Assembly (NCBI RefSeq): GCF_036507355.1
Contig: NZ_AP027877.1
Source of the DNA: Escherichia coli
Lineage (GTDB): Bacteria; Pseudomonadota; Gammaproteobacteria; Enterobacterales; Enterobacteriaceae
Reading direction: 5' to 3' (one strand)
Length of the DNA stretch: 64,000 nucleotides
The notes beneath the pieces were generated by a model that did not search any database, was not told the DNA's origin, and saw only the letters and a list, made by a program, of their open reading frames with translations. The position numbers and the translations under genes were made by a program. Of this stretch, positions 1 to 36,457 are shown in pieces (the stretch's first letter is position 1; each line of letters begins with the position of its first letter).

Positions 1-163
1 ACGCAGCAAGTTCCCAAAGGCTCCAGCGGAACGCCGATTGAATGGGCGATTGATGGCGAAACCACGTCGCTTCACTACCAGGCGAGTTATGTGGTCGTCA
101 ACACTCAGGCCACTGGTGGCACAGCGAATGCCCTTGTCAATTTTTCCATCACCTATGAGTAAG
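1..163 (+). CDS. 3' end of an upstream CDS (partial); C-terminus resembles a fimbrial subunit, possibly the lpf operon tail
   Basis: Open frame runs from the window edge to TAA at 161-163; C-terminal ...GGTANALVNFSITYE resembles a fimbrial beta-strand tail; lpf lies next to eptB in some E. coli (memory). Confidence 0.3.
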
Positions 164-416
164 TTACTGGGCCAGCATCCTGGCCCAACCTATCTCTGAA
201 TAGTCGTTAATCCGTTAAAATGGTCTATTCCGGACTTGCACTTTTGTAAATTTGTGCTTCATGCACACTCTTTCCCCACACTTTTTCCCTTTGCTGTGGT
301 CTACTTATTCGCGCGTGTAGATTTTACTTATCTGACTACCTCCGCACTTTTCCCCTGCTGGGCCTGAAAAGCCGCTAAGCAGGGTGTTATCACCTGTTTG
401 TCCAGGGTTTGTTTGC

Positions 417-2108
417 ATGAGATACATCAAATCGATTACACAGCAGAAGCTGAGCTTTTTGCTTGCAATCTATATTGGCCTTTTTATGAATGGCGCGGTT
501 TTTTACCGCCGCTTCGGCAGCTATGCGCACGATTTTACCGTCTGGAAAGGCATTTCTGCTGTTGTTGAACTGGCCGCCACCGTACTGGTAACCTTCTTTT
601 TACTACGTCTTCTTTCGCTGTTTGGCCGCCGCAGCTGGCGTATTCTGGCATCGCTGGTTGTGCTCTTTTCCGCAGGTGCCAGCTATTACATGACCTTCCT
701 TAATGTGGTCATTGGTTATGGCATCATCGCTTCCGTCATGACCACCGATATCGACCTGTCAAAAGAAGTTGTTGGTCTGAACTTTATTCTCTGGTTAATC
801 GCCGTTAGCGCATTGCCTCTTATCCTTATCTGGAATAACCGCTGTCGCTACACCTTGCTCCGACAACTGCGAACCCCAGGGCAGCGTATTCGCAGCCTGG
901 CGGTCGTCGTACTGGCGGGAATTATGGTTTGGGCACCGATTCGTTTGCTGGATATCCAGCAGAAGAAAGTGGAGAGGGCGACCGGCGTTGATTTGCCGAG
1001 TTATGGCGGTGTCGTAGCGAACTCTTATCTGCCATCAAACTGGCTTTCTGCGTTGGGGCTGTACGCCTGGGCGCGGGTCGATGAATCTTCCGATAATAAT
1101 TCATTGCTTAACCCGGCGAAGAAATTCACTTATCAGGCACCGCAAAATGTTAATGACACTTATGTCGTGTTTATCATCGGTGAAACCACGCGTTGGGACC
1201 ATATGGGCATTTTCGGCTATGAGCGTAATACCACGCCGAAGCTGGCCCAGGAGAAAAATCTGGCGGCGTTCCGTGGTTACTCCTGTGACACCGCAACCAA
1301 ACTCTCTCTGCGTTGCATGTTTGTACGTCAGGGGGGCGCGGAAGATAATCCGCAGCGCACATTAAAAGAACAGAACATTTTCGCGGTACTGAAGCAGTTA
1401 GGATTCAGTTCTGACCTCTACGCCATGCAGAGCGAAATGTGGTTCTACAGCAATACGATGGCGGATAATATTGCTTACCGTGAACAGATTGGTGCGGAGC
1501 CACGTAACCGTGGCAAGCCGGTAGATGATATGTTGCTGGTAGACGAAATGCAGCAATCGCTGGGGCGCAACCCGGATGGTAAGCATCTAATCATTCTGCA
1601 TACCAAAGGTTCGCACTTTAACTACACCCAGCGTTACCCGCGCAGCTTTGCGCAGTGGAAGCCGGAATGTATTGGTGTTGATAGCGGATGTACCAAAGCG
1701 CAGATGATCAACTCCTATGACAACTCGGTGACCTATGTGGATCACTTTATCTCCAGTGTGATTGATCAGGTTCGCGATAAGAAAGCGATTGTGTTCTACG
1801 CAGCTGACCACGGCGAGTCAATTAATGAACGCGAGCACCTGCACGGCACGCCGCGTGAACTGGCACCGCCGGAGCAGTTCCGCGTACCGATGATGGTCTG
1901 GATGTCAGATAAATATCTGGAAAATCCGGTCAATGCGCAGGCGTTTGCGCAGCTGAAAAAAGCAGCCGACATGAAAGTGCCACGCCGTCACGTAGAGCTG
2001 TACGACACCATCATGGGTTGTCTTGGCTATACTTCACCGGATGGTGGAATTAACGAAAACAACAACTGGTGTCACATCCCGCAGACAAAAGAGGCAGCGG
2101 CTAACTAA
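417..2108 (+). CDS. eptB: Kdo(2)-lipid A phosphoethanolamine transferase
   Basis: ORF 384..2108; N-terminus [16 protein letters not shown] from ATG at 417 gives 563 aa; sulfatase/PEtN-transferase family. Confidence 0.9.
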
Positions 2109-2199
2109 GAGGCCTGCTGACTTTCTCGCCGATCAAAAGGCATTTTGCTATTAAGGGATTGACGAGGGCGTATCTGCGCAGTAAGATGCGCCCCGCATT

Positions 2200-2276
<77 letters not shown>

Positions 2277-2283
2277 AATTCGA

Positions 2284-2311
2284 AAAGCCTGCTCAACGAG
2301 CAGGCTTTTTT
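2284..2311 (+). terminator. Rho-independent terminator after proK
   Basis: Stem AGCCTGCTC-AACG-AGCAGGCT followed by a T-run. Confidence 0.8.
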
Positions 2312-2368
2312 GCATCTGCAGCCCATGAGGAAGAGAACCTCCGGGGGCAGGGAGGTTCGACTCGACGT

Positions 2369-2454
2369 AGGCCTGATAAGACGCGTCAGCGTCGCATCAG
2401 GCAACGGCACCGCACTTATTGTCGGATGCGGCGCGACCGCCTTATTCGACCTAC
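2369..2454. repeat. REP/BIME palindromic units
   Basis: GCCTGATAAGACGCGTCAGCGTCGCATCAGGC and GTCGGATGCGGCGCGACCGCCTTATTCGACCTAC motifs. Confidence 0.75.
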
Positions 2455-2974
2455 ACACCACACATTTCCCTGCCAAATTTGCGCCCCATATCTCACTATC
2501 CATTAACGGATTTGTGACAGAAACCATTGTCTTTTTTTATATTTGCTTAAATCTTTTTTTGCGTTACTTATGGCTGGCGCTGGCATTTTCCGCTGTGCGT
2601 TTTAGCGTTCATGGTATTAATCGCTCAGATATCCACCTTTTCCTCAGATTTTTTTCATTAAATGCATAAAACTTAATCACCAAATGTTGCTAAATATTAA
2701 GCTGATTGTTCTGGTCATGTTGGAGTAGCACAAATTTCTCTGCTGCAAATAGCTGTTTGAAGTTTTTTTAATCTTTGTTTGTGGATTCTCACCGTTGGTG
2801 TAAATCCCGGTTGGCTGTATTGACGTTTTCACATTCTGTTGACAGATTGTAGGTCACGAGGGGCATTTTATGGAGGATCCGCACTGTTACACTGATGTTA
2901 ATTAGTACGGCATCCCCACCTCATAACGTTGACCCGACCGGGCAAAAAACAAAAAAGGTCAGGCAGCGACAACC

Positions 2975-3015
2975 CACTGCAAAGGGTTAAAACAACAAAC
3001 ATCACAATTGGAGCA
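2975..3015 (+). promoter_or_regulatory. C/A-rich dppA leader, candidate GcvB sRNA target site, with ribosome-binding site
   Basis: AAAACAACAAACATCACAATTGGAGCAGAATA immediately upstream of dppA ATG; assignment is from knowledge of the dppA leader, not shown by sequence alone. Confidence 0.35.
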
Positions 3016-3020
3016 GAATA

Positions 3021-4628
3021 ATGCGTATTTCCTTGAAAAAGTCAGGGATGCTGAAGCTTGGTCTCAGCCTGGTGGCTATGACCGTCGCAGCAAGTGTTCA
3101 GGCTAAAACTCTGGTTTATTGCTCAGAAGGATCTCCGGAAGGGTTTAACCCGCAGCTGTTTACCTCCGGCACCACCTATGACGCCTCTTCCGTCCCGCTT
3201 TATAACCGTCTGGTTGAATTTAAAATCGGCACCACCGAAGTGATCCCGGGCCTCGCTGAAAAGTGGGAAGTCAGCGAAGACGGTAAAACCTATACCTTCC
3301 ATCTGCGTAAAGGTGTGAAGTGGCACGACAATAAAGAATTCAAACCGACGCGCGAAATGAACGCCGATGACGTGGTGTTCTCGTTTGATCGTCAGAAAAA
3401 CGCGCAAAACCCGTACCATAAAGTATCTGGCGGCAGCTACGAATACTTCGAAGGCATGGGCTTGCCAGAGCTGATCAGCGAAGTGAAAAAGGTGGACGAC
3501 AACACCGTTCAGTTTGTGCTGACTCGCCCGGAAGCGCCGTTCCTCGCTGACCTTGCAATGGACTTCGCCTCTATTCTGTCAAAAGAATATGCTGATGCGA
3601 TGATGAAAGCTGGTACACCGGAAAAACTGGACCTCAACCCAATCGGTACCGGTCCGTTCCAGTTACAGCAGTATCAAAAAGATTCCCGTATTCGCTACAA
3701 AGCGTTTGATGGCTACTGGGGCACCAAACCGCAGATCGATACGCTGGTCTTCTCTATTACCCCTGACGCTTCCGTGCGTTACGCTAAATTGCAGAAAAAT
3801 GAATGCCAGGTGATGCCGTACCCGAACCCGGCAGATATCGCTCGCATGAAGCAGGATAAATCCATCAATCTGATGGAAATGCCGGGGCTTAACGTCGGTT
3901 ATCTCTCGTATAACGTGCAGAAAAAACCACTCGATGACGTGAAAGTTCGCCAGGCTCTGACCTACGCGGTGAACAAAGATGCCATCATTAAAGCGGTTTA
4001 TCAGGGCGCGGGTGTATCAGCGAAAAACCTGATCCCGCCAACTATGTGGGGCTATAACGACGACGTTCAGGACTACACCTACGATCCTGAAAAAGCGAAA
4101 GCCTTGCTGAAAGAAGCGGGTCTGGAAAAAGGTTTCTCCATCGACCTGTGGGCGATGCCGGTACAACGTCCGTATAACCCGAACGCTCGCCGCATGGCGG
4201 AGATGATTCAGGCAGACTGGGCGAAAGTGGGCGTGCAGGCTAAAATCGTCACCTACGAATGGGGTGAGTACCTCAAGCGTGCGAAAGATGGCGAGCATCA
4301 GACGGTAATGATGGGCTGGACTGGCGATAACGGGGATCCGGATAACTTCTTCGCCACTCTGTTCAGCTGCGCCGCCTCTGAACAAGGCTCCAACTACTCA
4401 AAATGGTGCTACAAACCGTTTGAAGATCTGATTCAACCGGCGCGTGCTACCGACGACCATAACAAACGCGTTGAACTGTACAAGCAAGCGCAGGTGGTGA
4501 TGCACGATCAGGCTCCGGCACTGATCATCGCTCACTCCACCGTGTTTGAACCGGTACGCAAAGAAGTTAAAGGCTATGTGGTTGATCCATTAGGCAAACA
4601 TCACTTCGAAAACGTCTCTATCGAATAA
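3021..4628 (+). CDS. dppA: Dipeptide ABC transporter periplasmic binding protein
   Basis: 535 aa; signal peptide MRISLKKSGMLKLGLSLVAMTVAASVQA; family 5 substrate-binding protein. Confidence 0.95.
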   Translation: MRISLKKSGMLKLGLSLVAMTVAASVQAKTLVYCSEGSPEGFNPQLFTSGTTYDASSVPLYNRLVEFKIGTTEVIPGLAEKWEVSEDGKTYTFHLRKGVKWHDNKEFKPTREMNADDVVFSFDRQKNAQNPYHKVSGGSYEYFEGMGLPELISEVKKVDDNTVQFVLTRPEAPFLADLAMDFASILSKEYADAMMKAGTPEKLDLNPIGTGPFQLQQYQKDSRIRYKAFDGYWGTKPQIDTLVFSITPDASVRYAKLQKNECQVMPYPNPADIARMKQDKSINLMEMPGLNVGYLSYNVQKKPLDDVKVRQALTYAVNKDAIIKAVYQGAGVSAKNLIPPTMWGYNDDVQDYTYDPEKAKALLKEAGLEKGFSIDLWAMPVQRPYNPNARRMAEMIQADWAKVGVQAKIVTYEWGEYLKRAKDGEHQTVMMGWTGDNGDPDNFFATLFSCAASEQGSNYSKWCYKPFEDLIQPARATDDHNKRVELYKQAQVVMHDQAPALIIAHSTVFEPVRKEVKGYVVDPLGKHHFENVSIE

Positions 4629-4935: not shown

Positions 4936-5955
4936 ATGTTGCAGTTTATTCTCCGACGTTTGGGACTCGTCATCCCCACGTTTATCGGTATTACCCTTCT
5001 CACATTTGCCTTTGTCCACATGATCCCGGGCGATCCGGTGATGATCATGGCGGGCGAGCGTGGGATCTCCCCAGAGCGTCACGCGCAGCTGCTGGCTGAA
5101 CTCGGCTTAGATAAACCGATGTGGCAGCAGTATCTCCATTACATTTGGGGCGTTATGCATGGCGATCTAGGCATTTCAATGAAAAGCCGCATCCCGGTTT
5201 GGGAAGAGTTCGTGCCGCGCTTTCAGGCCACGCTGGAACTTGGCGTCTGCGCGATGATTTTTGCTACGGCAGTCGGTATTCCGGTTGGTGTGCTGGCTGC
5301 GGTTAAACGCGGTTCCATTTTCGATCACACAGCGGTTGGCCTGGCGCTGACAGGTTATTCAATGCCTATCTTCTGGTGGGGAATGATGCTGATCATGCTG
5401 GTTTCGGTGCACTGGAACCTGACGCCCGTCTCCGGTCGTGTGAGTGACATGGTATTCCTCGATGATTCCAATCCGTTAACCGGTTTTATGCTGATCGACA
5501 CCGCCATCTGGGGTGAAGACGGCAACTTTATCGATGCCGTCGCCCATATGATCTTGCCCGCCATTGTGCTGGGTACCATCCCGCTGGCGGTCATTGTGCG
5601 TATGACGCGCTCCTCGATGCTGGAAGTGCTGGGTGAAGATTACATCCGCACCGCGCGCGCCAAAGGGTTGACCCGCATGCGGGTGATTATCGTCCATGCG
5701 CTGCGTAACGCGATGCTGCCGGTAGTGACCGTTATCGGCCTCCAGGTGGGAACATTGCTGGCGGGGGCGATTCTGACCGAAACCATCTTCTCGTGGCCCG
5801 GTCTGGGGCGCTGGTTGATTGACGCACTGCAACGCCGCGACTATCCGGTAGTGCAGGGCGGCGTATTGCTGGTGGCGACGATGATTATCCTCGTCAACCT
5901 GCTGGTCGATCTGCTGTACGGCGTGGTGAACCCGCGTATTCGTCATAAGAAGTAA
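4936..5955 (+). CDS. dppB: Dipeptide ABC transporter permease
   Basis: ORF 4780..5955 trimmed to ATG at 4936 (MLQFILRRLGLVIPTF), 339 aa. Confidence 0.9.
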   Translation: MLQFILRRLGLVIPTFIGITLLTFAFVHMIPGDPVMIMAGERGISPERHAQLLAELGLDKPMWQQYLHYIWGVMHGDLGISMKSRIPVWEEFVPRFQATLELGVCAMIFATAVGIPVGVLAAVKRGSIFDHTAVGLALTGYSMPIFWWGMMLIMLVSVHWNLTPVSGRVSDMVFLDDSNPLTGFMLIDTAIWGEDGNFIDAVAHMILPAIVLGTIPLAVIVRMTRSSMLEVLGEDYIRTARAKGLTRMRVIIVHALRNAMLPVVTVIGLQVGTLLAGAILTETIFSWPGLGRWLIDALQRRDYPVVQGGVLLVATMIILVNLLVDLLYGVVNPRIRHKK

Positions 5956-5964
5956 GGGGACATC

Positions 5965-6867
5965 ATGTCACAGGTTACTGAAAATAAAGTGATTAGCGCG
6001 CCGGTACCGATGACCCCTTTACAGGAGTTCTGGCACTATTTTAAACGCAACAAAGGCGCGGTCGTCGGGTTGGTTTACGTCGTCATCGTGCTGTTTATCG
6101 CGATCTTTGCCAACTGGATTGCGCCGTATAACCCGGCGGAACAGTTCCGCGATGCACTGCTCGCCCCGCCAGCCTGGCAGGAAGGCGGCAGCATGGCGCA
6201 CTTGCTGGGCACCGATGACGTAGGCCGTGATGTGCTGTCGCGGCTGATGTACGGCGCGCGCTTGTCGCTGCTGGTTGGCTGTCTGGTGGTGGTGTTATCG
6301 CTGATTATGGGCGTTATTCTCGGCCTGATCGCCGGTTACTTCGGCGGCCTGGTCGATAACATCATCATGCGCGTGGTCGATATCATGCTGGCGCTGCCAA
6401 GTCTGCTGTTGGCACTGGTGCTGGTGGCGATTTTCGGCCCGTCGATTGGTAACGCCGCGCTGGCGCTGACCTTTGTTGCCTTGCCGCACTATGTGCGCTT
6501 AACCCGCGCCGCCGTGCTGGTGGAAGTTAACCGCGATTACGTTACCGCGTCTCGCGTGGCAGGTGCCGGGGCGATGCGTCAGATGTTTATTAACATCTTC
6601 CCGAACTGCCTTGCGCCTCTGATTGTTCAGGCGTCGCTCGGTTTCTCTAACGCCATTCTCGATATGGCTGCTCTTGGTTTCCTCGGCATGGGGGCGCAGC
6701 CGCCAACACCAGAGTGGGGCACCATGCTCTCTGACGTGTTGCAGTTCGCGCAAAGCGCCTGGTGGGTCGTGACCTTCCCTGGTCTGGCGATCCTGCTGAC
6801 GGTGCTGGCATTTAACCTGATGGGTGACGGTCTGCGTGACGCGCTCGATCCCAAACTGAAGCAGTAA
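5965..6867 (+). CDS. dppC: Dipeptide ABC transporter permease
   Basis: 300 aa; polytopic membrane protein of the ABC permease family. Confidence 0.9.
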
Positions 6868-6877
6868 GAGGTTCGAG

Positions 6878-7861
6878 ATGGCGTTATTAAATGTAGATAA
6901 ATTATCGGTGCATTTCGGCGACGAAAGCGCACCGTTCCGCGCCGTAGACCGCATCAGCTACAGCGTGAAACAGGGCGAAGTGGTCGGGATTGTGGGTGAG
7001 TCCGGCTCTGGTAAGTCGGTCAGTTCACTGGCGATTATGGGGCTGATTGATTATCCGGGCCGCGTGATGGCGGAAAAGCTGGAGTTTAACGGTCAGGATT
7101 TGCAGCGTATCTCAGAAAAAGAGCGCCGCAATCTGGTGGGTGCCGAAGTGGCGATGATCTTCCAGGACCCGATGACCAGCCTTAACCCGTGCTACACCGT
7201 TGGTTTCCAGATTATGGAAGCGATTAAGGTGCATCAGGGCGGTAATAAGAGCACTCGCCGTCAGCGGGCGATTGACCTGCTGAATCAGGTCGGTATTCCC
7301 GATCCGGCATCGCGTCTGGATGTTTACCCGCATCAGCTTTCCGGCGGCATGAGCCAGCGCGTGATGATCGCCATGGCGATTGCCTGTCGGCCAAAACTGC
7401 TGATTGCCGATGAACCGACCACTGCGCTGGACGTGACCATTCAGGCGCAAATCATCGAACTACTGCTGGAGCTACAGCAGAAAGAGAACATGGCGCTGGT
7501 GTTAATTACCCATGACCTGGCGCTGGTGGCGGAAGCGGCACATAAAATCATCGTGATGTATGCCGGTCAGGTGGTGGAAACGGGCGATGCGCACGCCATC
7601 TTCCATGCGCCGCGTCACCCGTATACTCAGGCATTGCTGCGTGCGCTGCCGGAATTTGCTCAGGACAAAGAACGTCTGGCATCGTTGCCTGGCGTTGTTC
7701 CCGGCAAGTACGACCGCCCGAACGGCTGCCTGCTTAACCCGCGCTGCCCCTATGCCACTGACAGATGTCGCGCTGAAGAACCGGCGCTGAATATGCTCGC
7801 TGACGGGCGTCAGTCCAAATGCCATTACCCACTTGATGATGCCGGGAGGCCGACACTATGA
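6878..7861 (+). CDS. dppD: Dipeptide ABC transporter ATP-binding protein
   Basis: 327 aa; Walker A GESGSGKS, signature LSGGMSQR; 4-bp overlap with dppF. Confidence 0.9.
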
Positions 7862-8862
7862 GTACGCAAGAGGCCACCTCGCAACAACCGCTGTTGCAGG
7901 CTATCGACCTGAAAAAACATTATCCGGTGAAGAAAGGTATGTTCGCTCCGGAACGTCTGGTGAAGGCGCTGGACGGCGTTTCGTTTAACCTTGAACGTGG
8001 CAAAACGCTGGCGGTAGTAGGTGAATCTGGCTGCGGTAAATCGACCCTCGGTCGGTTGCTGACGATGATTGAAACGCCCACCGGCGGCGAGCTGTATTAC
8101 CAGGGGCAGGATCTGCTTAAGCACGATCCGCAGGCGCAGAAGCTGCGTCGGCAGAAAATCCAGATTGTCTTCCAGAACCCTTACGGTTCGCTGAATCCGC
8201 GTAAAAAAGTCGGGCAAATTCTTGAAGAGCCGCTGCTGATCAACACCAGCTTAAGCAAAGAACAGCGTCGGGAAAAAGCCCTGTCGATGATGGCGAAAGT
8301 CGGCCTGAAAACCGAGCACTATGACCGCTATCCGCATATGTTCTCCGGCGGACAACGTCAGCGTATCGCTATTGCCCGTGGTCTGATGCTCGACCCGGAC
8401 GTGGTGATTGCCGATGAACCGGTCTCCGCGCTGGACGTCTCGGTGCGTGCACAGGTGCTCAACCTGATGATGGATTTGCAGCAGGAACTGGGGCTTTCTT
8501 ATGTCTTCATCTCCCACGACCTGTCGGTGGTGGAGCACATTGCTGATGAAGTGATGGTGATGTACCTGGGCCGCTGCGTGGAGAAGGGAACGAAAGACCA
8601 AATCTTCAATAACCCGCGCCATCCGTACACTCAGGCGCTACTTTCCGCGACGCCGCGCCTGAATCCGGACGATCGCCGCGAGCGCATCAAACTCACCGGT
8701 GAACTGCCAAGCCCGCTGAATCCACCGCCGGGCTGCGCGTTTAATGCCCGCTGTCGTCGGCGCTTCGGCCCCTGCACCCAGTTGCAGCCGCAGCTAAAAG
8801 ACTACGGCGGTCAACTGGTAGCTTGTTTTGCTGTTGATCAGGATGAAAATCCGCAGCGTTAA
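7858..8862 (+). CDS. dppF: Dipeptide ABC transporter ATP-binding protein
   Basis: 334 aa; Walker [10 protein letters not shown], signature FSGGQRQR. Confidence 0.9.
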
Positions 8863-8891
8863 CTCACAAAACCGGGGCCATGCGCTCCGGT

Positions 8892-10163
8892 TTACTCAAT
8901 CAGCTTCAACAGTGGCGACAAGCATAGCAAAATGCCGTAAAGCAGAATCAGCCAGGCTTTAAATCCGCGAAGTTTTTCCAGTTGTGCGACTTTATAGATC
9001 AGGAAAAACGGAATGAGGCACGACACAATGCCATATAACGGGCTTCCCAACTGAAAGAACACCAGCACCGATACACGAAACGAAACCCAAATCGTCAACG
9101 TAATGACGATAAAAGCGCAGATCGCCAGAGTCAGCATGCGTGAGTTAATTTTCTTGGTATCAATAATTCGGCTTAACAGATTGAGAATAATGCCTTTAAT
9201 GGCCTCGTGGAAACCGAGATAAATGCCAAAGAATGCGGTCAGTACGGCAAAGATATTCAGCACCGTAGAGGTGATATGAATGATATGCCCAGGGATCACC
9301 TGCGCGGCCAGTGCCAGTGCCGAGATATTTTGTTCAAAGGCAGAAACGGCTTCTTCGTGGCTAATTGAGAAGGTAAACGAAAAGGCAAAAAACAGTATCA
9401 CCGCGATGAGCGTGATATAACTAATTCGGTGGGTACGCAGCGCGAGCCGGGTTGCCAGTACTTTATCCGCTTCCCGTTTACGATAGGCAATATTCATTGG
9501 GTTAAGTACCTGAATAAATACTGCAGAAAAGAAGCAAAATGGAATGGTAAGCAGGACATCGCGAAAAAAGACGGAGGCTTGCGGGAAGGCGGTTATATTG
9601 GCGAAATTCCAGTGCGGGATCATCGCAAAACCGAACACGACAATAATCCCTACTTTGACCACCACCATTGGCCCGGAAATCTTAAACAGTAATCGTTCAC
9701 CACCAGACGCAATCGCTACCAGTACGGCGAAAATAGCGACTTTATAAAGTAGAGATTGTGAAAGATCGGCATCGGTTAAACCGAAGGTTTTCAGGTACGA
9801 GGCGCTGTCGAAAACCACGGAGAGAGAGTAGATAAAAATCCCGTGGATAATCATCAAAAAGTAGATAACCCCGAGGAAAATTCCCCAGTTCTTCCCCAGG
9901 TAATGACTGATAATATCGGTGTAGTCATTACAGGAATCGCTTTCAGAAAGAGTTTTTAAATAAATGTCCTGCACTACCCAGGTGGCAGGATAAGCAATGA
10001 TCGCTGCGGTAATAAATACCCAAATTCCCTTCAAGCCAATTTGTACTGGCATCAGCACGGTTCCGGCACCAATCGCCATGCCTATGCATAATAAAACCCA
10101 GCCGAAGTCGTAGCGTGTAAACGGCAATTTCTGATCGTGTTTCGGTAGTGTGTTGTGCTGCAT
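8892..10163 (-). CDS. yhjV: Amino-acid permease family inner membrane transporter
   Basis: ORF 8892..10226 trimmed to [12 protein letters not shown] start (423 aa); polytopic membrane protein. Confidence 0.8.
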
Positions 10164-10521
10164 AAAGTCCTGTCCAGAAAGAAGTCGGCCTCGCAAAAAT
10201 GAATAAACCCAGTTTCTCTTGCGCAACAGGTGGAGAAGTCGAATACGCAGTATGTAAAAAATGAGGCAACAGATTCACTGGGGAGGTCGCGAGGAGGCGC
10301 AATTCTACAAAATTGCGCATTTCACTACCAGTCTGGAGTCAGCCCGGATATGAACTGCAACTATTGCAAATTAAGAAATTAAGCTGGAAGGCATCACGCA
10401 ATGAGGAAGATTGCCGGGTGCTGACAGTAAAAAGCAATCGTAAAATTAGCGGCAAGCCGGAAGGGTTCCGGTGAGGCGCAATGTTGCGGGGGCTTAATCC
10501 CTGGTGGCATTGGTTGCTGGA

Positions 10522-10590
10522 GAGAGAAAACCCCCGCACGTTGCAGGTATGCACCTGACAACACCACGGGGGCTAATCTTGAACCTAGAC
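10522..10590 (-). ncRNA. rdlD: Rdl antisense sRNA (antitoxin of the ldrD type I toxin-antitoxin pair)
   Basis: Minus strand reads GTCTAGGTTCAAGATTAGCCCCCGTGGTGTTGTCAGGTGCATACCTGCAACGTGCGGGGGTTTTCTCTC with a terminal hairpin and U-run, about 50 nt upstream of ldrD on the opposite strand. Confidence 0.6.
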
Positions 10591-10638
10591 CACTCAAGAA
10601 TAGCCGCGAAACGTTGTCATTACAACACAGGCGGCTAT

Positions 10639-10746
10639 ATGACGCTCGCAGAACTGGGCATGGCCTTCTGGCATGATTTAGCGGCTCCGGTCATTGCTGG
10701 CATTCTTGCCAGTATGATCGTGAACTGGCTGAACAAGCGGAAGTAA
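10639..10746 (+). CDS. ldrD: Type I toxin LdrD, 35-aa membrane peptide
   Basis: [35 protein letters not shown] at the 3' end of track ORF 10504..10746. Confidence 0.85.
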
Positions 10747-10749
10747 CGT

Positions 10750-10961
10750 GTCATGCGGGCGTCAGGCTGCCCTTTTTACAAAACCGCGATGCGCAGGCCG
10801 TTCAGCGCCAGCGCGTGGCCGATAACTTTCCCGGCAGCGATGCCTATTACAACTATGTGCTGACCCTGTTTGGACAAGGCTGGGATCAACACCGTTTCCG
10901 CTTCTCGACAAAAGGTGAGTTATTACCTGACTGGGGCCAGGAATGCGCAAATTCACACTAA
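10750..10961 (+). pseudogene. bcsZ: 3' remnant (about 70 codons) of endoglucanase bcsZ, lacking 5' portion and start
   Basis: Frame ending TAA 10959-10961 encodes ...[64 protein letters not shown], overlapping the bcsC start in the usual bcsZ-bcsC manner; nothing upstream except ldrD. Confidence 0.6.
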
Positions 10962-13900
10962 ACATATTCACGCTTTCCCTCGGTCTGGCCGTCATGCCGA
11001 TGGTCGAGGCAGCACCAACCGCTCAGCAACAGTTGCTGGAGCAAGTTCGGTTAGGCGAAGCGACCCATCGTGAAGACCTGGTACAGCAGTCGTTGTATCG
11101 GCTGGAACTTATTGATCCGAATAACCCGGACGTCGTTGCCGCCCGTTTCCGTTCTTTGTTACGTCAGGGCGATATTGATGGCGCGCAAAAACAGCTCGAT
11201 CGGCTGTCGCAGTTAGCGCCGAGTTCAAATGCGTATAAATCGTCGCGGACTACGATGCTGCTTTCCACGCCAGATGGTCGTCAGGCACTGCAACAGGCAA
11301 GATTGCAGGCGACGACTGGTCATGCAGAAGAAGCTGTGGCGAGTTACAACAAACTGTTCAACGGTGCGCCGCCGGAAGGTGACATTGCCGTCGAGTACTG
11401 GAGTACGGTGGCGAAAATTCCGGCTCGCCGTGGCGAAGCGATTAATCAGCTAAAACGCATTAATGCGGATGCACCGGGCAATACGGGCCTGCAAAACAAT
11501 CTGGCGCTATTGCTGTTTAGTAGCGATCGCCGTGACGAAGGTTTTGCCGTCCTGGAACAGATGGCGAAATCGAACGCCGGGCGCGAAGGGGCCTCTAAAA
11601 TCTGGTACGGGCAGATTAAAGACATGCCCGCAGCGATGCCAGCGTGCAGGCGCTGAAAAAATATCTTTCGATCTTTAGTGATGGTGATAGCGTGGCGGCT
11701 GCGCAATCGCAACTGGCAGAACAGCAAAAACAGCTGGCCGATCCTGCTTTCCGCGCTCGTGCGCAAGGTTTAGCGGCGGTGGACTCTGGTATGGCGGGTA
11801 AAGCCATTCCCGAACTACAACAGGCAGTGCGGGCGAACCCGAAAGACAGTGAGGCTCTGGGGGCGCTGGGCCAGGCATATTCACAGAAAGGCGATCGCGC
11901 CAATGCAGTGGCGAATCTGGAAAAAGCCCTCGCACTGGATCCGCACAGCAGCAACAACGACAAATGGAACAGTCTGCTGAAAGTAAACCGCTACTGGCTG
12001 GCAATCCAGCAGGGCGATGCTGCGCTGAAAGCCAATAATCCTGACCGGGCAGAACGCCTGTTCCAGCAGGCGCGTAATGTCGATAACACCGACAGTTATG
12101 CAGTGCTGGGGCTGGGCGATGTGGCGATGGCGCGAAAAGATTATCCCGCCGCCGAACGTTATTATCAGCAGACCTTGCGTATGGACAGCGGCAACACTAA
12201 CGCCGTGCGCGGGCTGGCAAATATTTACCGCCAGCAATCGCCAGAAAAAGCTGAAGCGTTTATCGCCTCGCTCTCTGCCAGTCAGCGACGTAGCATTGAT
12301 GATATCGAACGCAGCCTGCAAAACGACCGTCTGGCACAGCAGGCAGAGGCACTGGAAAACCAGGGCAAATGGGCGCAGGCGGCAGCACTTCAGCGGCAAC
12401 GACTGGCGCTGGACCCCGGCAGCGTATGGATTACTTACCGACTTTCGCAGGATCTCTGGCAGGCCGGACAACGCAGCCAGGCCGATACGTTAATGCGCAA
12501 TCTGGCGCAGCAGAAGCCGAACGACCCGGAGCAGGTTTACGCTTACGGGCTGTACCTCTCTGGTCATGACCAGGACAGAGCGGCGCTGGCGCATATCAAC
12601 AGCCTGCCGCGTGCGCAGTGGAGCAGCAATATTCAGGAGCTGGTTAATCGACTGCAAAGCGATCAGGTGCTGGAAACCGCTAATCGCCTGCGAGAAAGCG
12701 GCAAAGAAGCTGAAGCGGAAGCGATGCTGCGTCAGCAACCACCTTCCACGCGTATTGACCTCACGCTGGCTGACTGGGCGCAGCAGCGACGTGATTACAC
12801 CGCCGCCCGCGCTGCATATCAGAATGTCCTGACGCGGGAGCCAACTAACGCCGATGCCATTCTGGGGCTGTCGGAAGTGGATATTGCTGCCAGTGACAAA
12901 GCGGCGGCACGTAGCCAGCTGGCGAAACTGCCCGCTACCGATAACGCCTCACTGAACACACAGCGGCGCGTGGCGCTGGCGCAGGCGCAGCTTGGAAATA
13001 CCGCAGCGGCGCAGCAGACGTTTAATAAGTTGATCCCGCAGGCAAAATCTCAGCCACCGTCGATGGAAAGCGCGATGGTGCTGCGCGACGGTGCGAAGTT
13101 TGAAGCGCAGGCGGGCGATCCAAAGCAGGCGCTGGAAACCTACAAAGACGCCATGGTCGCATCCGGTGTGACTACGACGCGTCCGCAGGATAACGACACC
13201 TTTACCCGACTGACCCGTAACGACGAGAAAGATGACTGGCTGAAACGCGGCGTGCGCAGCGATGCGGCGGACCTCTATCGCCAGCAGGATCTTAACGTCA
13301 CCCTCGAGCATGATTACTGGGGTTCGAGCGGCACCGGTGGTTACTCCGATCTGAAAGCGCATACTACCATGTTGCAGGTGGATGCTCCGTATTCTGACGG
13401 GCGGATGTTCTTTCGCAGTGATTTCGTCAATATGAACGTCGGCAGTTTCTCCACTAATGCCGATGGCAAATGGGATGACAACTGGGGCACCTGTACATTA
13501 CAGGACTGTAGCGGCAACCGCAGCCAGTCGGATTCCGGTGCCAGCGTGGCGGTCGGCTGGCGAAATGACGTCTGGAGCTGGGATATCGGCACCACGCCGA
13601 TGGGCTTCAACGTGGTGGATGTGGTCGGCGGCATCAGTTACAGCGATGATATCGGGCCGCTGGGTTACACCGTTAACGCCCACCGTCGGCCCATCTCCAG
13701 TTCTTTGCTGGCCTTTGGTGGGCAAAAAGACTCCCCGAGCAATACCGGGAAAAAATGGGGCGGCGTGCGTGCCGACGGCGTGGGGCTAAGCCTGAGCTAC
13801 GATAAAGGTGAAGCAAACGGCGTCTGGGCATCGCTTAGCGGCGACCAGTTAACCGGTAAAAATGTCGAAGATAACTGGCGTGTGCGCTGGATGACGGGCT

Positions 13901-14415
13901 ATTACTATAAGGTCATCAACCAGAACAATCGCCGCGTCACAATCGGCCTGAACAACATGATCTGGCATTACGACAAAGACCTGAGTGGCTACTCACTCGG
14001 TCAGGGCGGTTACTACAGTCCGCAGGAATACCTGTCGTTTGCCATACCGGTGATGTGGCGGGAGCGCACGGAAAACTGGTCGTGGGAGCTGGGGGCGTCT
14101 GGCTCGTGGTCGCATTCGCGCACCAAAACCATGCCGCGGTATCCGCTGATGAATCTGATCCCGACTGACTGGCAGGAAGAAGCTGCGCGGCAATCCAACG
14201 ATGGCGGCAGCAGTCAGGGCTTTGGCTATACGGCGCGGGCATTACTTGAGCGTCGCGTCACATCCAACTGGTTTGTTGGCACGGCAATTGATATCCAGCA
14301 GGCGAAAGATTACGCGCCCAGCCATTTCCTGCTCTATGTACGTTATTCCGCCGCTGGATGGCAGGGTGACATGGATTTACCGCCGCAGCCGCTGATACCT
14401 TACGCCGACTGGTAA
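10943..14415 (+). pseudogene. bcsC: Cellulose synthase outer-membrane subunit BcsC (TPR protein), disrupted by a -1 frameshift near 11630
   Basis: Two consecutive ORFs (10943..11656, 237 aa; 11644..14415, 923 aa) in different frames; total span 3473 nt is not a multiple of 3; frame 1 hits a stop at 11654-11656 while frame 2 continues SDASVQALKKYLSIF. Confidence 0.8.
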
Positions 14416-28805: not shown

Positions 28806-28807
28806 AG
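28796..28807. repeat. IS4 target-site duplication, left copy (CTCCTCCTGAAG)
   Basis: Identical 12-mer at 30234..30245 directly flanks the other IS4 end. Confidence 0.85.
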
Positions 28808-30233
28808 TAATGCCGATCAGTTAAGGATCAGTTGACCGATCCAGTGGCTGTGTAAGAATCCGGAAACGCTCACTCGTTTCCGGATTTTTTTATGCACATT
28901 GGACAGGCTCTTGATCTGGTATCCCGTTACGATTCTCTGCGTAACCCACTGACTTCTCTGGGGGATTACCTCGACCCCGAACTCATCTCTCGTTGCCTTG
29001 CCGAATCAGGTACTGTAACGCTACGCAAGCGCCGTCTTCCCCTCGAAATGATGGTCTGGTGTATTGTTGGCATGGCGCTTGAGCGTAAAGAACCTCTTCA
29101 CCAGATTGTGAATCGCCTGGACATCATGCTGCCGGGCAATCGCCCCTTCGTTGCCCCCAGTGCTGTTATTCAGGCCCGCCAGCGCCTGGGAAGTGAGGCT
29201 GTCCGCCGCGTGTTCACGAAAACAGCGCAGCTCTGGCATAACGCCACGCCGCATCCGCACTGGTGCGGCCTGACCCTGCTGGCCATCGATGGTGTGTTCT
29301 GGCGCACACCGGATACACCAGAGAACGATGCAGCCTTCCCTCGCCAGACACATGCCGGGACCCCGGCGCTCTACCCGCAGGTCAAAATGGTCTGCCAGAT
29401 GGAACTGACCAGCCATCTGCTGACGGCTGCAGCCTTCGGCACGATGAAGAACAGCGAAAATGAGCTTGCTGAGCAACTTATAGAACAAACCGGCGATAAC
29501 ACTCTGACGTTAATGGATAAAGGTTATTACTCACTGGGATTGTTAAATGCCTGGAGCCTGGCGGGAGAACACCGCCACTGGATGATCCCTCTCAGAAAGG
29601 GAGCGCAATATGAAGAGATCAGAAAACTGGGTAAAGGCGATCATCTGGTGAAGCTGAAAACCAGCCCGCAGGCACGAAAAAAGTGGCCGGGACTGGGAAA
29701 TGAGGTGACAGCCCGCCTGCTGACCGTGACGCGCAAAGGAAAAGTCTGCCATCTGCTGACGTCGATGACGGACGCCATGCGCTTCCCCGGAGGAGAAATG
29801 GCGGATCTGTACAGTCATCGCTGGGAAATCGAACTGGGATACAGGGAGATAAAACAGACGATGCAACTGAGCAGGCTGACGCTGAGAAGTAAAAAGCCTG
29901 AGCTTGTGGAGCAAGAGCTGTGGGGTGTCTTACTGGCTTATAATCTGGTGAGATATCAGATGATTAAAATGGCGGAACATCTGAAAGGTTACTGGCCAAA
30001 TCAACTGAGCTTCTCAGAATCATGCGGAATGGTGATGAGAATGCTGATGATATTGCAGGGCGCTTCACCGGGACGTATACCGGAGCTGATGCGCGATCTT
30101 GCAAGTATGGGACAACTTGTGAAATTACCGACAAGAAGGGAAAGGGCCTTCCCGAGAGTGGTAAAGGAGAGGCCCTGGAAATACCCCACAGCCCCGAAAA
30201 AGAGCCAGTCAGTTGCTTAACTGACTGGCATTA
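28808..30233 (+). mobile_element. IS4 insertion sequence (1426 bp)
   Basis: Terminal inverted repeats TAATGCCGATCAGTTAAG (left) and TAATGCCAGTCAGTTAAG (right, reverse complement); exact length 1426 bp; single 442-aa transposase; 12-bp direct duplication. Confidence 0.92.
28892..30220 (+). CDS. insG: IS4 transposase
   Basis: 442 aa, [26 protein letters not shown]...; DDE transposase of the IS4 family. Confidence 0.92.
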
Positions 30234-30245
30234 CTCCTCCTGAAG
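30234..30245. repeat. IS4 target-site duplication, right copy (CTCCTCCTGAAG)
   Basis: Matches 28796..28807. Confidence 0.85.
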
Positions 30246-35420: not shown

Positions 35421-35759
35421 TTAATCGCAATAATATATTGGCTGTCTATTCATCGTGTTGATAAGATATATGTTATATGAATGTTTATTAAATGTAGCGA
35501 TTACCTTTAATGTCACGAAAGGGGATTATTTGCTTACTATTAATTTCCCTGCGTTCTTAAACACGTATTTGTATTATAAATCCAGTCATCCTGCCCGTAG
35601 AACATCACACATTATCATCCTGTTCTCCCGCTTCGTTTAAATTTATTTATCAATCAATTTGACTTAAGAGGGCGGCGTGCTACATTAATAAACAGTAATA
35701 TGTTTATGTAATATTAAGTCAACTATGCAATCACTACATGGGAAGGTAATGACTCCAAC

Positions 35760-36263
35760 TTATTGATAGTGTTTTATGTTCAGATAATGCCCGATGACTT
35801 TGTCATGCAGCTCCACCGATTTTGAGAACGACAGCGACTTCCGTCCCAGCCGTGCCAGGTGCTGCCTCAGATTCAGGTTATGCCGCTCAATTCGCTGCGT
35901 ATATCGCTTGCTGATTACGTGCAGCTTTCCCTTCAGGCGGGATTCATACAGCGGCCAGCCATCCGTCATCCATATCACCACGTCAAAGGGTGACAGCAGG
36001 CTCATAAGACGCCCCAGCGTCGCCATCGTGCGTTCACCGAATACGTGCGCAACAACCGTCTTCCGGAGCCTGTCATACGCGTAAAACAGCCAGCGCTGGC
36101 GCGATTTAGCCCCGACATAGCCCCACTGTTCGTCCATTTCCGCGCAGACGATGACGTCACTGCCCGGCTGTATGCGCGAGGTTACCGACTGCGGCCTGAG
36201 TTTTTTAAGTGACGTAAAATCGTGTTGAGGCCAATGCCCATAATGCGGGCTGTTGCCCGGCAT
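35760..36263 (-). CDS. insB: IS1 transposase InsB frame (made as InsAB' by -1 frameshift)
   Basis: 167 aa [36 protein letters not shown]...; A6C slippery motif upstream. Confidence 0.9.
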
Positions 36264-36457
36264 CCAACGCCATTCATGGCCATATCAATGATTTTCTGGT
36301 GCGTACCGGGTTGAGAAGCGGTGTAAGTGAACTGCAGTTGCCATGTTTTACGGCAGTGAGAGCAGAGATAGCGCTGATGTCCGGCGGTGCTTTTGCCGTT
36401 ACGCACCACCCCGTCAGTAGCTGAACAGGAGGGACAGCTGATAGAAACAGAAGCCAC
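36182..36457 (-). CDS. insA: IS1 InsA
   Basis: 91 aa [40 protein letters not shown]... Confidence 0.9.

What the first reader, a model, noticed from the sequence alone, without database searches (positions are those of the whole stretch)
1..420. Fimbrial-like gene tail immediately upstream of eptB
The first 163 nt encode a C-terminus (...VNFSITYE) resembling a fimbrial subunit or adhesin rather than the MFS transporter expected here in K-12. This suggests an lpf-type fimbrial operon at this position, as reported for some pathogenic E. coli. Only the last ~53 codons are in the window, so the call is weak.
Basis: partly seen in the sequence, partly recalled or inferred. Interest (0 to 1): 0.3.

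Follow-up and report, generated by a model that had tools for sequence, protein, structure and literature searches.

The report
End of lpfE fimbrial gene

Summary
Confirmed, and already known. Window 1-159 (+ strand, frame 1; stop TAA at 160-162) encodes the last 53 residues of LpfE, ending VNFSITYE.

Bases 1-420 are 100% identical to the annotated lpfE-eptB junction of E. coli O157:H7 and many other strains. The fragment alone hits NCBI's LpfE model at E=2e-23.

Of 5426 complete E. coli genomes, 422 carry the whole 1-420. About 4,900 others, including K-12, match only 234-420, so lpf-specific sequence ends at 233/234. In K-12 the MFS gene yhjX abuts eptB. In lpf-positive genomes yhjX is kept and about 5.9 kb is inserted after it: lpfA, lpfB (chaperone), lpfC (usher), lpfD (adhesin) and lpfE.

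All but one of the 422 tail-bearing genomes also hold at least 80% of that operon in one stretch. An operon upstream of this window is therefore very likely, but it cannot be seen here.

The rest of the interval holds a GC hairpin without a T-run (168-187) and the conserved eptB promoter and leader. The transcription start maps to about 311 and the eptB ATG is at 417.

This is the lpf1 / O-island 141 locus, syntenic with Salmonella lpfABCDE-yhjW-proK. Interest is low. In passing, the window comes from an IS-laden E. coli lineage with a 10.6-kb bcs deletion.

The parts
1..162 (+). 3' end of lpfE: codons for LpfE residues 124-176 (1-159) plus the TAA stop (160-162). The gene runs off the left edge of the window.
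   Evidence: Translation is identical to the C-terminus of the O157:H7 LpfE translation. 100% nucleotide identity to annotated lpfE. NF011752 LpfE E=2e-23. Tyr at the penultimate position and Gly 14 residues from the end are read directly from the sequence and are shared with FimI and PDB 5n2b in the alignments.
163..233 (+). lpf-linked 3' flank. It is present only in lpf1-positive genomes, and high-identity homology with lpf-less genomes starts at 234.
   Evidence: About 4,900 lpf-less genomes match the query only from 234 to 420. The K-12 alignment starts at 234. Similarity of 163-233 to the K-12 yhjX-eptB spacer is not significant.
168..187 (+). GC-rich hairpin just after the lpfE stop: TGGGCCAG / loop CATC / CTGGCCCA. 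No T-run follows. It may be a weak terminator or a 3'-end stabiliser.
   Evidence: RNA fold of 155-235: MFE -23.4 kcal/mol, z = -2.77 against shuffles, with this stem also in the centroid structure. It is not called terminator-like by the scan. The K-12 yhjX terminator GGGCCA-ATTAAC-TGGCCC+TTTTTA is called by the same scan.
234..416 (+). Conserved eptB upstream region. It holds an inferred sigma-E-type promoter (-35 about 277-283, -10 about 300-304), a transcription start at about 311, and a 106-nt leader with the Hfq-binding motifs AU1 (321-333) and AU2 (346-352, ACUUUUC here against ACUUUUU in K-12).
   Evidence: 97.9% identical to K-12 over 234-420. AU1 and AU2 sit at leader positions 11-23 and 36-42 according to PMC6239178. 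Both map consistently to a start at 311. eptB is RpoE-transcribed and MgrR-repressed (PMC4651636). The hexamer assignment is my own reading. The -10 block CTGTGGTCTACTTA is invariant across three divergent haplotypes.
417..2108 (+). eptB (yhjW), the Kdo2-lipid A phosphoethanolamine transferase and downstream neighbour of lpfE. Only its first 4 bases lie inside the finding's interval.
   Evidence: Annotation of the identical sequence. ORF list. Pfam EptA_B_N + Sulfatase on the identical protein.

Best explanation
Bases 1-162 are the 3' end of lpfE, the fifth and last gene of the lpf1 long polar fimbriae operon. That operon is O-island 141 of O157:H7, lpfABC(C')DE, a gamma-type chaperone-usher fimbrial cluster sitting between yhjX and eptB.

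LpfE is a secreted pilin-fold subunit. The residues encoded in the window form the C-terminal end of its incomplete Ig-like fold, including the last beta-strand (NALVNFSITYE) with the penultimate Tyr and the Gly at -14. These features let the LpfB chaperone, and later a neighbouring subunit's N-terminal strand, complete the fold by donor-strand complementation and exchange at the LpfC usher. LpfE is most probably a minor structural subunit. It could be FimI/FimA-like, acting as a fibre-base or terminator subunit, or it could be an adaptor next to the LpfD adhesin.

Shown here: the identity of the tail, the position of the locus, and the gene content of the operon in every comparable genome. 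Inferred: that the operon lies upstream in this genome, and the role of LpfE. Downstream of 233 the sequence is ordinary E. coli core, namely the eptB sigma-E promoter and its sRNA-regulated leader.
For: The translation ends VNFSITYE and is identical to residues 124-176 of the O157:H7 LpfE translation. Bases 1-420 are 100% identical to annotated lpfE-eptB junctions. The NCBIfam LpfE equivalog gives E=2e-23 on the fragment, against 1.7e-5 for the next family, FimI. The full-length reference LpfE scores 297.5 bits against a 169-bit cut-off and PF00419 at 1.3e-20.

Operon gene content in O157:H7 is Fimbrial, PapD_N/PapD_C, usher, Fimbrial, Fimbrial. LpfD matches the solved AIEC LpfD adhesin 5afo at 3e-67. 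422 of 5426 genomes carry the tail and 421 carry at least 80% of the island in one stretch. K-12 has yhjX directly beside eptB.

From the literature: two lpf clusters lie on O-islands 141 and 154 of EDL933 and are related to Salmonella Lpf (PMC5357955). lpf1 has five genes A-E (PMC4636846). Salmonella has lpfABCDE-yhjW-proK (PMC2930847). Solved structures nearest to LpfE are the type-1 subunit 5n2b (3.9e-14), FimI (4e-12) and FimA (7e-10), ahead of FimG (2e-6) and FimF (5e-4).
Against: Only 53 of 176 codons are in the window. The signal peptide, N-terminal donor strand, disulfide, and the chaperone, usher and adhesin genes cannot be seen for this genome. The source lineage is not in the complete-genome set: the best match is 99.1% identity. 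That lineage shows IS insertions, deletions and frameshifts elsewhere in the window, so upstream lpf genes could be damaged, as lpfC is in O157:H7. No experiment assigns a role to LpfE. [quoted passage not shown]
Confidence: 0.95

Rival explanations
1. The tail is real lpfE, but in this genome the operon upstream is a remnant. It would be truncated, IS-interrupted or carrying pseudogenes, so no fimbria is made.
For: The window's lineage is decaying. It has IS1, IS4-family and IS3-family insertions, a 10.6-kb bcs deletion, a frameshifted bcsC and a truncated chuA. In O157:H7 lpfC already carries an internal stop. In O169:H41 the island is split into two places.
Against: The 162 bases present are 100% identical to functional-looking alleles with the frame intact. 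421 of 422 tail-bearing complete genomes keep at least 80% of the island in one piece. The nearest complete genome has all five genes intact.
Confidence: 0.2
2. The tail belongs to a different chaperone-usher cluster, such as lpf2 (O-island 154), the divergent lpf variant also found at this site, or another type-1-like fimbria, rather than O157-type lpf1.
For: All gamma-type pilins share the C-terminal motif. The fragment also weakly matches FimI, LpfA and a generic major-subunit model. A second, 76%-identical lpf operon occupies the same site in 77 genomes.
Against: The LpfE model scores 18 orders of magnitude better than any other family. Nucleotide identity to O157-type lpfE is 100%. The divergent variant's lpfE-eptB spacer aligns poorly with the window. 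The locus sits beside eptB/proK, which is where lpf1 lies in O157:H7.
Confidence: 0.02
3. LpfE is a regulator of the operon rather than a fibre subunit.
For: [quoted passage not shown] No experiment on LpfE was found.
Against: Full-length LpfE is a complete PF00419 pilin domain. It has a plausible signal peptide, two Cys residues and the pilin C-terminal Tyr/Gly motif. It aligns end to end with FimI, FimA and other solved pilins. No DNA-binding family is hit.
Confidence: 0.03

Closest known systems
lpf1 / O-island 141 of E. coli O157:H7 (lpfABCC'DE; Torres et al. 2002, cited in PMC5357955)
   Same: Identical sequence over 1-420. Same neighbours on the visible side (eptB, tRNA-Pro, dppABCDF) and the same LpfE C-terminus.
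   Different: The source is not O157:H7: identity is 99.0-99.2% over the following kilobases. Whether lpfC is split here, as it is in O157:H7, is unknown.
Salmonella enterica serovar Typhimurium lpfABCDE (Baumler and Heffron 1995, cited in PMC5357955)
   Same: Same five-gene order and the same downstream neighbours, lpfABCDE-yhjW-proK (PMC2930847). The fragment and the reference LpfE both hit the NCBIfam family named LpfE.
   Different: Different species. Sequence identity to the Salmonella gene was not measured here.
Divergent lpf variant at the same yhjX-eptB site (e.g. E. coli EcPF40, urine isolate)
   Same: Same insertion site, gene order and annotation, lpfA-B-C-(D)-E then eptB.
   Different: Only about 76% nucleotide identity, detectable over lpfA-C alone. 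Its lpfE-eptB spacer and eptB leader are also strongly divergent from the window.
Type 1 fimbrial subunits FimI and FimA (solved structures 6swh, 7b0w, 6y7s)
   Same: Same pilin fold family. End-to-end alignment with LpfE, sharing the C-terminal ...TGG.ANA...F.LTY. motif.
   Different: Homology is distant (E 1e-12 to 1e-9). LpfE is encoded last in its operon, after the adhesin, and not next to the major subunit as fimI is (the position of fimI is from my own knowledge).
K-12 arrangement yhjX-eptB (empty site)
   Same: The eptB promoter and leader from window 234 onward is 97.9% identical.
   Different: No lpf genes. yhjX with its own T-run terminator sits 323 bp from eptB.

Membership tests
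LpfE (NCBIfam NF011752, equivalog) | Whole-protein score above the curated cut-off of 169 bits | tested here: inconclusive
   The 53-aa fragment scores 83.1 bits, E=2e-23, on profile positions 123-176/176. It cannot reach a whole-protein cut-off. The reference protein with the identical C-terminus scores 297.5 bits.
LpfE (NCBIfam NF011752, equivalog) | Nucleotide identity to genes annotated lpfE | tested here: met
   100% over 1-420 to many records annotated 'lpfE: long polar fimbrial protein LpfE'.
lpf1 operon / O-island 141 | Location between yhjX and eptB (yhjW), with proK and dpp downstream | tested here: met
   The downstream side is seen in the window: eptB 417-2108, tRNA 2200-2273, dppA 3021-4628. 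The upstream yhjX side is seen only in reference genomes.
lpf1 operon / O-island 141 | Chaperone (PapD), usher and adhesin genes upstream in the same operon | not testable with these tools
   These genes lie outside the window, and the source genome could not be fetched. They are present in all 8 places with identical EptB and in 421 of 422 tail-bearing complete genomes.
Chaperone-usher pilin (Pfam PF00419 Fimbrial) | Domain match above the gathering score | tested here: inconclusive
   Fragment: 18.8 bits against 25.6, E=0.0021, on profile positions 102-151/151. Full-length reference: 74.6 bits.
Chaperone-usher pilin (Pfam PF00419 Fimbrial) | C-terminal strand with penultimate Tyr and Gly 14 residues from the end (the chaperone-recognition motif, from established knowledge of PapD/FimC-type systems) | tested here: met
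   ...TGGTANALVNFSITYE has Y at -2 and G at -14, read. The same columns are conserved in FimI and 5n2b.
Chaperone-usher pilin (Pfam PF00419 Fimbrial) | Signal peptide, N-terminal donor strand and intramolecular disulfide | not testable with these tools
   These lie in the missing 123 codons. The reference LpfE has MKFKRLLHSGIASLSLVACGVNA, an alternating IHFSITI stretch and two Cys residues.
lpf2 operon (O-island 154) | A separate chromosomal site (glmS-pstS, from my own knowledge) and a four-to-five-gene operon ending in lpfD/D' | tested here: not met
   The window locus abuts eptB/proK, and the tail is an lpfE, a gene lpf2 lacks (PMC4636846).
YhjX (MFS transporter, the K-12 neighbour of eptB) | Sequence homology to the yhjX 3' end and its terminator | tested here: not met
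   K-12 homology begins only at 234. The tail hits fimbrial families only. The spacer similarity is not significant.

The most novel reading that the evidence does not exclude
lpfE is followed by a hairpin without a T-run rather than a recognisable terminator. It lies only 254 nt upstream of eptB on the same strand. lpf1 transcription might therefore read through into eptB and proK, coupling fimbrial expression to phosphoethanolamine modification of LPS Kdo. The lpf1-linked eptB leader also carries a U-to-C change in the Hfq-binding AU2 motif (352), which could alter MgrR repression. Neither point was tested here.
Probability: 0.12. Interest if true: 0.3.

Novelty: already known. Interest (0 to 1): 0.05.

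Why it matters
It matters little beyond correct annotation. It shows that the window comes from an lpf1-positive E. coli lineage (about 8% of complete genomes). It also fixes the right-hand end of the lpf-specific sequence at 233/234, just upstream of an intact eptB promoter and leader. Long polar fimbriae are a studied colonisation factor: they target Peyer's patches and M cells in EHEC, AIEC and Salmonella (PMC5357955). lpfA alleles are used as typing markers. So the presence of the locus is useful strain information, but it is not a discovery.

Tried and rejected
1. Extending the window upstream by exact-protein look-ups.
- EptB and YhjV of the window are identical in thousands of assemblies and do not single out the source.
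- The BcsC N-terminal fragment is not on record.
- The truncated ChuA fragment is found only in short draft contigs that end at the IS. It also appears as BED20442.1 / VEE46_02100 on a 4.64-Mb E. coli contig that the tools cannot fetch.

2. Homology of 163-233 to the K-12 yhjX terminator region. The stems look alike (GGGCCA/TGGCCC), but the local alignment score is reached by 47 of 2000 shuffles and picks a different stretch. I do not claim homology.

3. Sigma-70 promoter and intrinsic-terminator scans of 1-600 found nothing.

4. Rfam on 1-3000 at E up to 1 found only tRNA-Pro, a REP-type naRNA4 element and chance hits. Nothing real falls in 1-420.

5. Base composition as a sign of foreign origin. 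Only the lpfA end of the island is AT-rich (39-44% GC) and the rest is about 50%. This is not informative for the tail.

6. The primary papers, Torres 2002 and Torres 2009, are not held. The yhjX/yhjW location of O-island 141 therefore rests on genome annotation and on my own recollection of that paper.

7. A Shigella flexneri lpf lead (PMC6854044) concerns a cluster with other locus tags and says nothing about this window.

Full report
**Observation**

The + strand is open in frame 1 from base 1 to a TAA at 160-162. It encodes 53 residues, TQQVPKGSSGTPIEWAIDGETTSLHYQASYVVVNTQATGGTANALVNFSITYE. eptB starts at 417 and runs to 2108. It is followed by tRNA-Pro (2200-2273), a REP-type element and dppABCDF.

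**Identity of the tail**

Bases 1-420 are 100% identical to many complete E. coli chromosomes. These include O157:H7, O169:H41, O157:H16 and isolates from humans, animals and food. In all of them the matched stretch is annotated 'lpfE: long polar fimbrial protein LpfE' followed by eptB.

The 53-residue fragment alone matches the NCBIfam LpfE equivalog NF011752 at E=2e-23, over profile positions 123-176 of 176. The next family, FimI, scores 1.7e-5. Pfam's general Fimbrial domain hits the fragment only weakly (E=0.0021, below the gathering score), because only a third of the domain is present.

The full-length O157:H7 LpfE is 176 aa and its last 53 residues are identical to the window's. It scores 297.5 bits on the LpfE model (cut-off 169) and 1.3e-20 on PF00419. 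The tail also shows the two classical C-terminal marks of chaperone-usher pilins, a penultimate Tyr and a Gly 14 residues from the end. Both sit in columns shared with FimI and with the type-1 subunit 5n2b.

**What lies upstream in comparable genomes**

In O157:H7 PV15-279 the order is bisC, yiaC, tag, yhjY, yhjX, lpfA1, lpfB, lpfC (pseudogene with an internal stop), a 351-aa fimbrial protein, lpfE, eptB, tRNA-Pro, dppABCDF, yhjV. The products carry these domains:
- LpfA: Fimbrial.
- LpfB: PapD_N + PapD_C.
- LpfC, where intact: PapC_N / Usher / PapC_C.
- LpfD: Fimbrial. It matches the solved AIEC LpfD adhesin 5afo at 3e-67.
- LpfE: Fimbrial.

In K-12, yhjX (an MFS transporter) lies 323 bp from eptB with nothing between them.

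All 8 places examined that encode the window's exact EptB have the five-gene fimbrial cluster upstream. Of 5426 complete genomes, 422 carry the whole 1-420 and 421 carry at least 80% of the island in one stretch. The exception type, O169:H41, has the island split into two places. The complete genome nearest to the window, SCU-316 from a healthy student (99.1% identity), has all five genes intact.

**Boundary and the rest of the interval**

About 4,900 lpf-less genomes match the query only from 234 to 420 at 95.7-98.9% identity. High-identity core sequence therefore begins at 234.

Bases 163-233 are lpf-linked. They contain an 8-bp GC-rich hairpin (168-175 / 180-187, loop CATC) whose fold is better than shuffles (z = -2.77). 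It has no T-run and is not called terminator-like. The K-12 yhjX terminator, GGGCCA-ATTAAC-TGGCCC+TTTTTA, is called by the same scan. In O157:H7, yhjX is followed by a different T-run terminator. The two hairpins share stem letters, but the similarity of 163-233 to the K-12 spacer is not significant: 47 of 2000 shuffles score as well.

From 234 onward the sequence is the eptB control region. PMC6239178 places the Hfq-binding motifs AU1 (AUUUUACUUAUCU) at leader positions 11-23 and AU2 (ACUUUUU) at 36-42. Here they sit at 321-333 and 346-352. Both put the transcription start at about 311 and give a 106-nt leader. AU2 reads ACUUUUC in the window, as in the identical O157:H7-type sequences.

eptB is transcribed by RpoE and repressed by the sRNAs MgrR and ArcZ (PMC4651636). 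The MgrR site overlaps the AUG. A sigma-E-like geometry fits the mapped start: ACACTT at 278-283, a 16-nt spacer, and TCTAC at 300-304. That assignment is my inference. The -10 block is invariant across three very different haplotypes.

**Mechanism**

Lpf is a chaperone-usher fimbria. Subunits are exported and held by the LpfB chaperone, which supplies the missing strand of their Ig-like fold. They are then polymerised at the LpfC usher by donor-strand exchange. The last strand of each subunit, the one encoded in this window for LpfE, lines the groove that receives the donor strand. This account follows from established knowledge of Pap and Fim systems and from the domain content shown above. 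It was not tested here.

The specific role of LpfE is unknown. [quoted passage not shown] The sequence evidence favours a structural subunit. LpfE has a complete pilin domain, a plausible signal peptide, two cysteines and the pilin C-terminal motif. It aligns end to end with solved pilins. It is closer to FimI and FimA (E 4e-12 and 7e-10) than to the adaptors FimG and FimF (2e-6 and 5e-4). That leans weakly towards a FimI-like base or terminator subunit over an adaptor, but it does not settle the question.

**Comparison with what is known**

This is the lpf1 locus on O-island 141 of EDL933. It is one of two lpf clusters in that strain related to Salmonella Lpf, and it is implicated in targeting of Peyer's patches and M cells (PMC5357955). 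Salmonella Typhimurium has the same arrangement, lpfABCDE-yhjW-proK (PMC2930847). The primary papers (Torres 2002, Torres 2009) are not in the held library. The statement that O-island 141 lies between yhjX and yhjW therefore rests on the genome annotation seen here and on my recollection. Nothing about the finding is new.

**Limits**

The upstream operon of this particular genome could not be read. The window is at most 99.1% identical to any complete RefSeq E. coli genome over its first 10.3 kb. Its truncated ChuA fragment is recorded as BED20442.1 (VEE46_02100, Escherichia coli) on a 4,643,937-bp contig that the tools cannot fetch. Because this lineage shows several IS insertions and deletions, some decay of lpf upstream is possible. 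I put that at about 0.2.

**Verdict**

The feature is already known and interest is 0.05. The only mildly novel reading left open is transcriptional read-through from lpf into eptB through the T-less hairpin, together with the AU2 variant in the lpf1-linked eptB leader. Probability is about 0.12.

Noticed in passing
window 10760-14415: A 10.6-kb deletion relative to K-12 (K-12 3689356-3699955) removes bcsG, F, E, R, Q, A, B and most of bcsZ. The junction falls at about 10760-10771, where the two K-12 alignments overlap by 12 nt. The remaining bcsC is split by a frameshift into 10943-11656 and 11644-14415. None of the best-matching complete genomes shares the deletion: their matches span about 36 kb for 25 kb of query.
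   Followed up: partly
window 28807-30234: An insertion absent from K-12 lies between yhjB and treF. It carries a 442-aa IS4-family transposase ORF (28892-30220; NF033592, E=9e-91).
   Followed up: partly
window 35744-36507: A roughly 760-bp insertion absent from K-12 lies between gadA and gadX. Its two ORFs on the minus strand have the sizes and look of IS1 InsA (36182-36457, 91 aa) and InsB (35760-36263, 167 aa). The IS1 call is from my reading of the translations and was not checked against a family library.
   Followed up: partly
window 47062-57390: The chu haem-uptake island lies between yhiD and dctR and is absent from K-12. Family matches: a haem ABC ATPase (47109-48032) and ChuW (50049-51386). 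The other chu gene names are inferred from gene order. chuA (start 53003) is cut after 375 codons by an IS3-family element (orfA 54187-54489, orfB 54525-55343; IS600-like by ORF sizes). Its C-terminal part resumes at about 55249-56253. This exact truncated product is rare: 6 short contigs plus BED20442.1 / VEE46_02100 [Escherichia coli] on a 4.64-Mb contig.
   Followed up: partly
window 59368-61444: The IS5 that interrupts yhiS in K-12 is absent here. K-12 3648489-3650176, covering arsR and most of arsB, has no counterpart (junction at window 61226/61229).
   Followed up: no
whole window, especially 1-25000: No complete RefSeq E. coli genome is closer than about 99.1% over the first 10.3 kb. 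Together with the IS load and pseudogenes, this suggests a genome-decaying, Shigella/EIEC-like E. coli lineage missing from the RefSeq complete set. The organism label found is simply 'Escherichia coli'.
   Followed up: partly
window 346-352: The Hfq-binding AU2 motif of the eptB leader is ACUUUUC, against ACUUUUU in K-12. The window's 234-420 differs from K-12 at four positions (240, 352, 359, 373). It is matched at 99% or better in 423 genomes, essentially the 422 that carry lpf1, so this eptB leader variant travels with the island.
   Followed up: partly
L011 (E. coli EcPF40, NZ_CP054214.1) 5016-10768: 77 complete genomes carry a second lpf operon at the same yhjX-eptB site that is only about 76% identical. 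In EcPF40 the lpfE-eptB spacer and eptB leader are also strongly divergent: AU1 is replaced, while the -10 block CTGTGGTCTACTTA and the region around the ATG are conserved.
   Followed up: partly
window 2370-2451: A REP-type element downstream of tRNA-Pro matches Rfam naRNA4 (RF02564) above its gathering score on the minus strand (66.9 bits).
   Followed up: no
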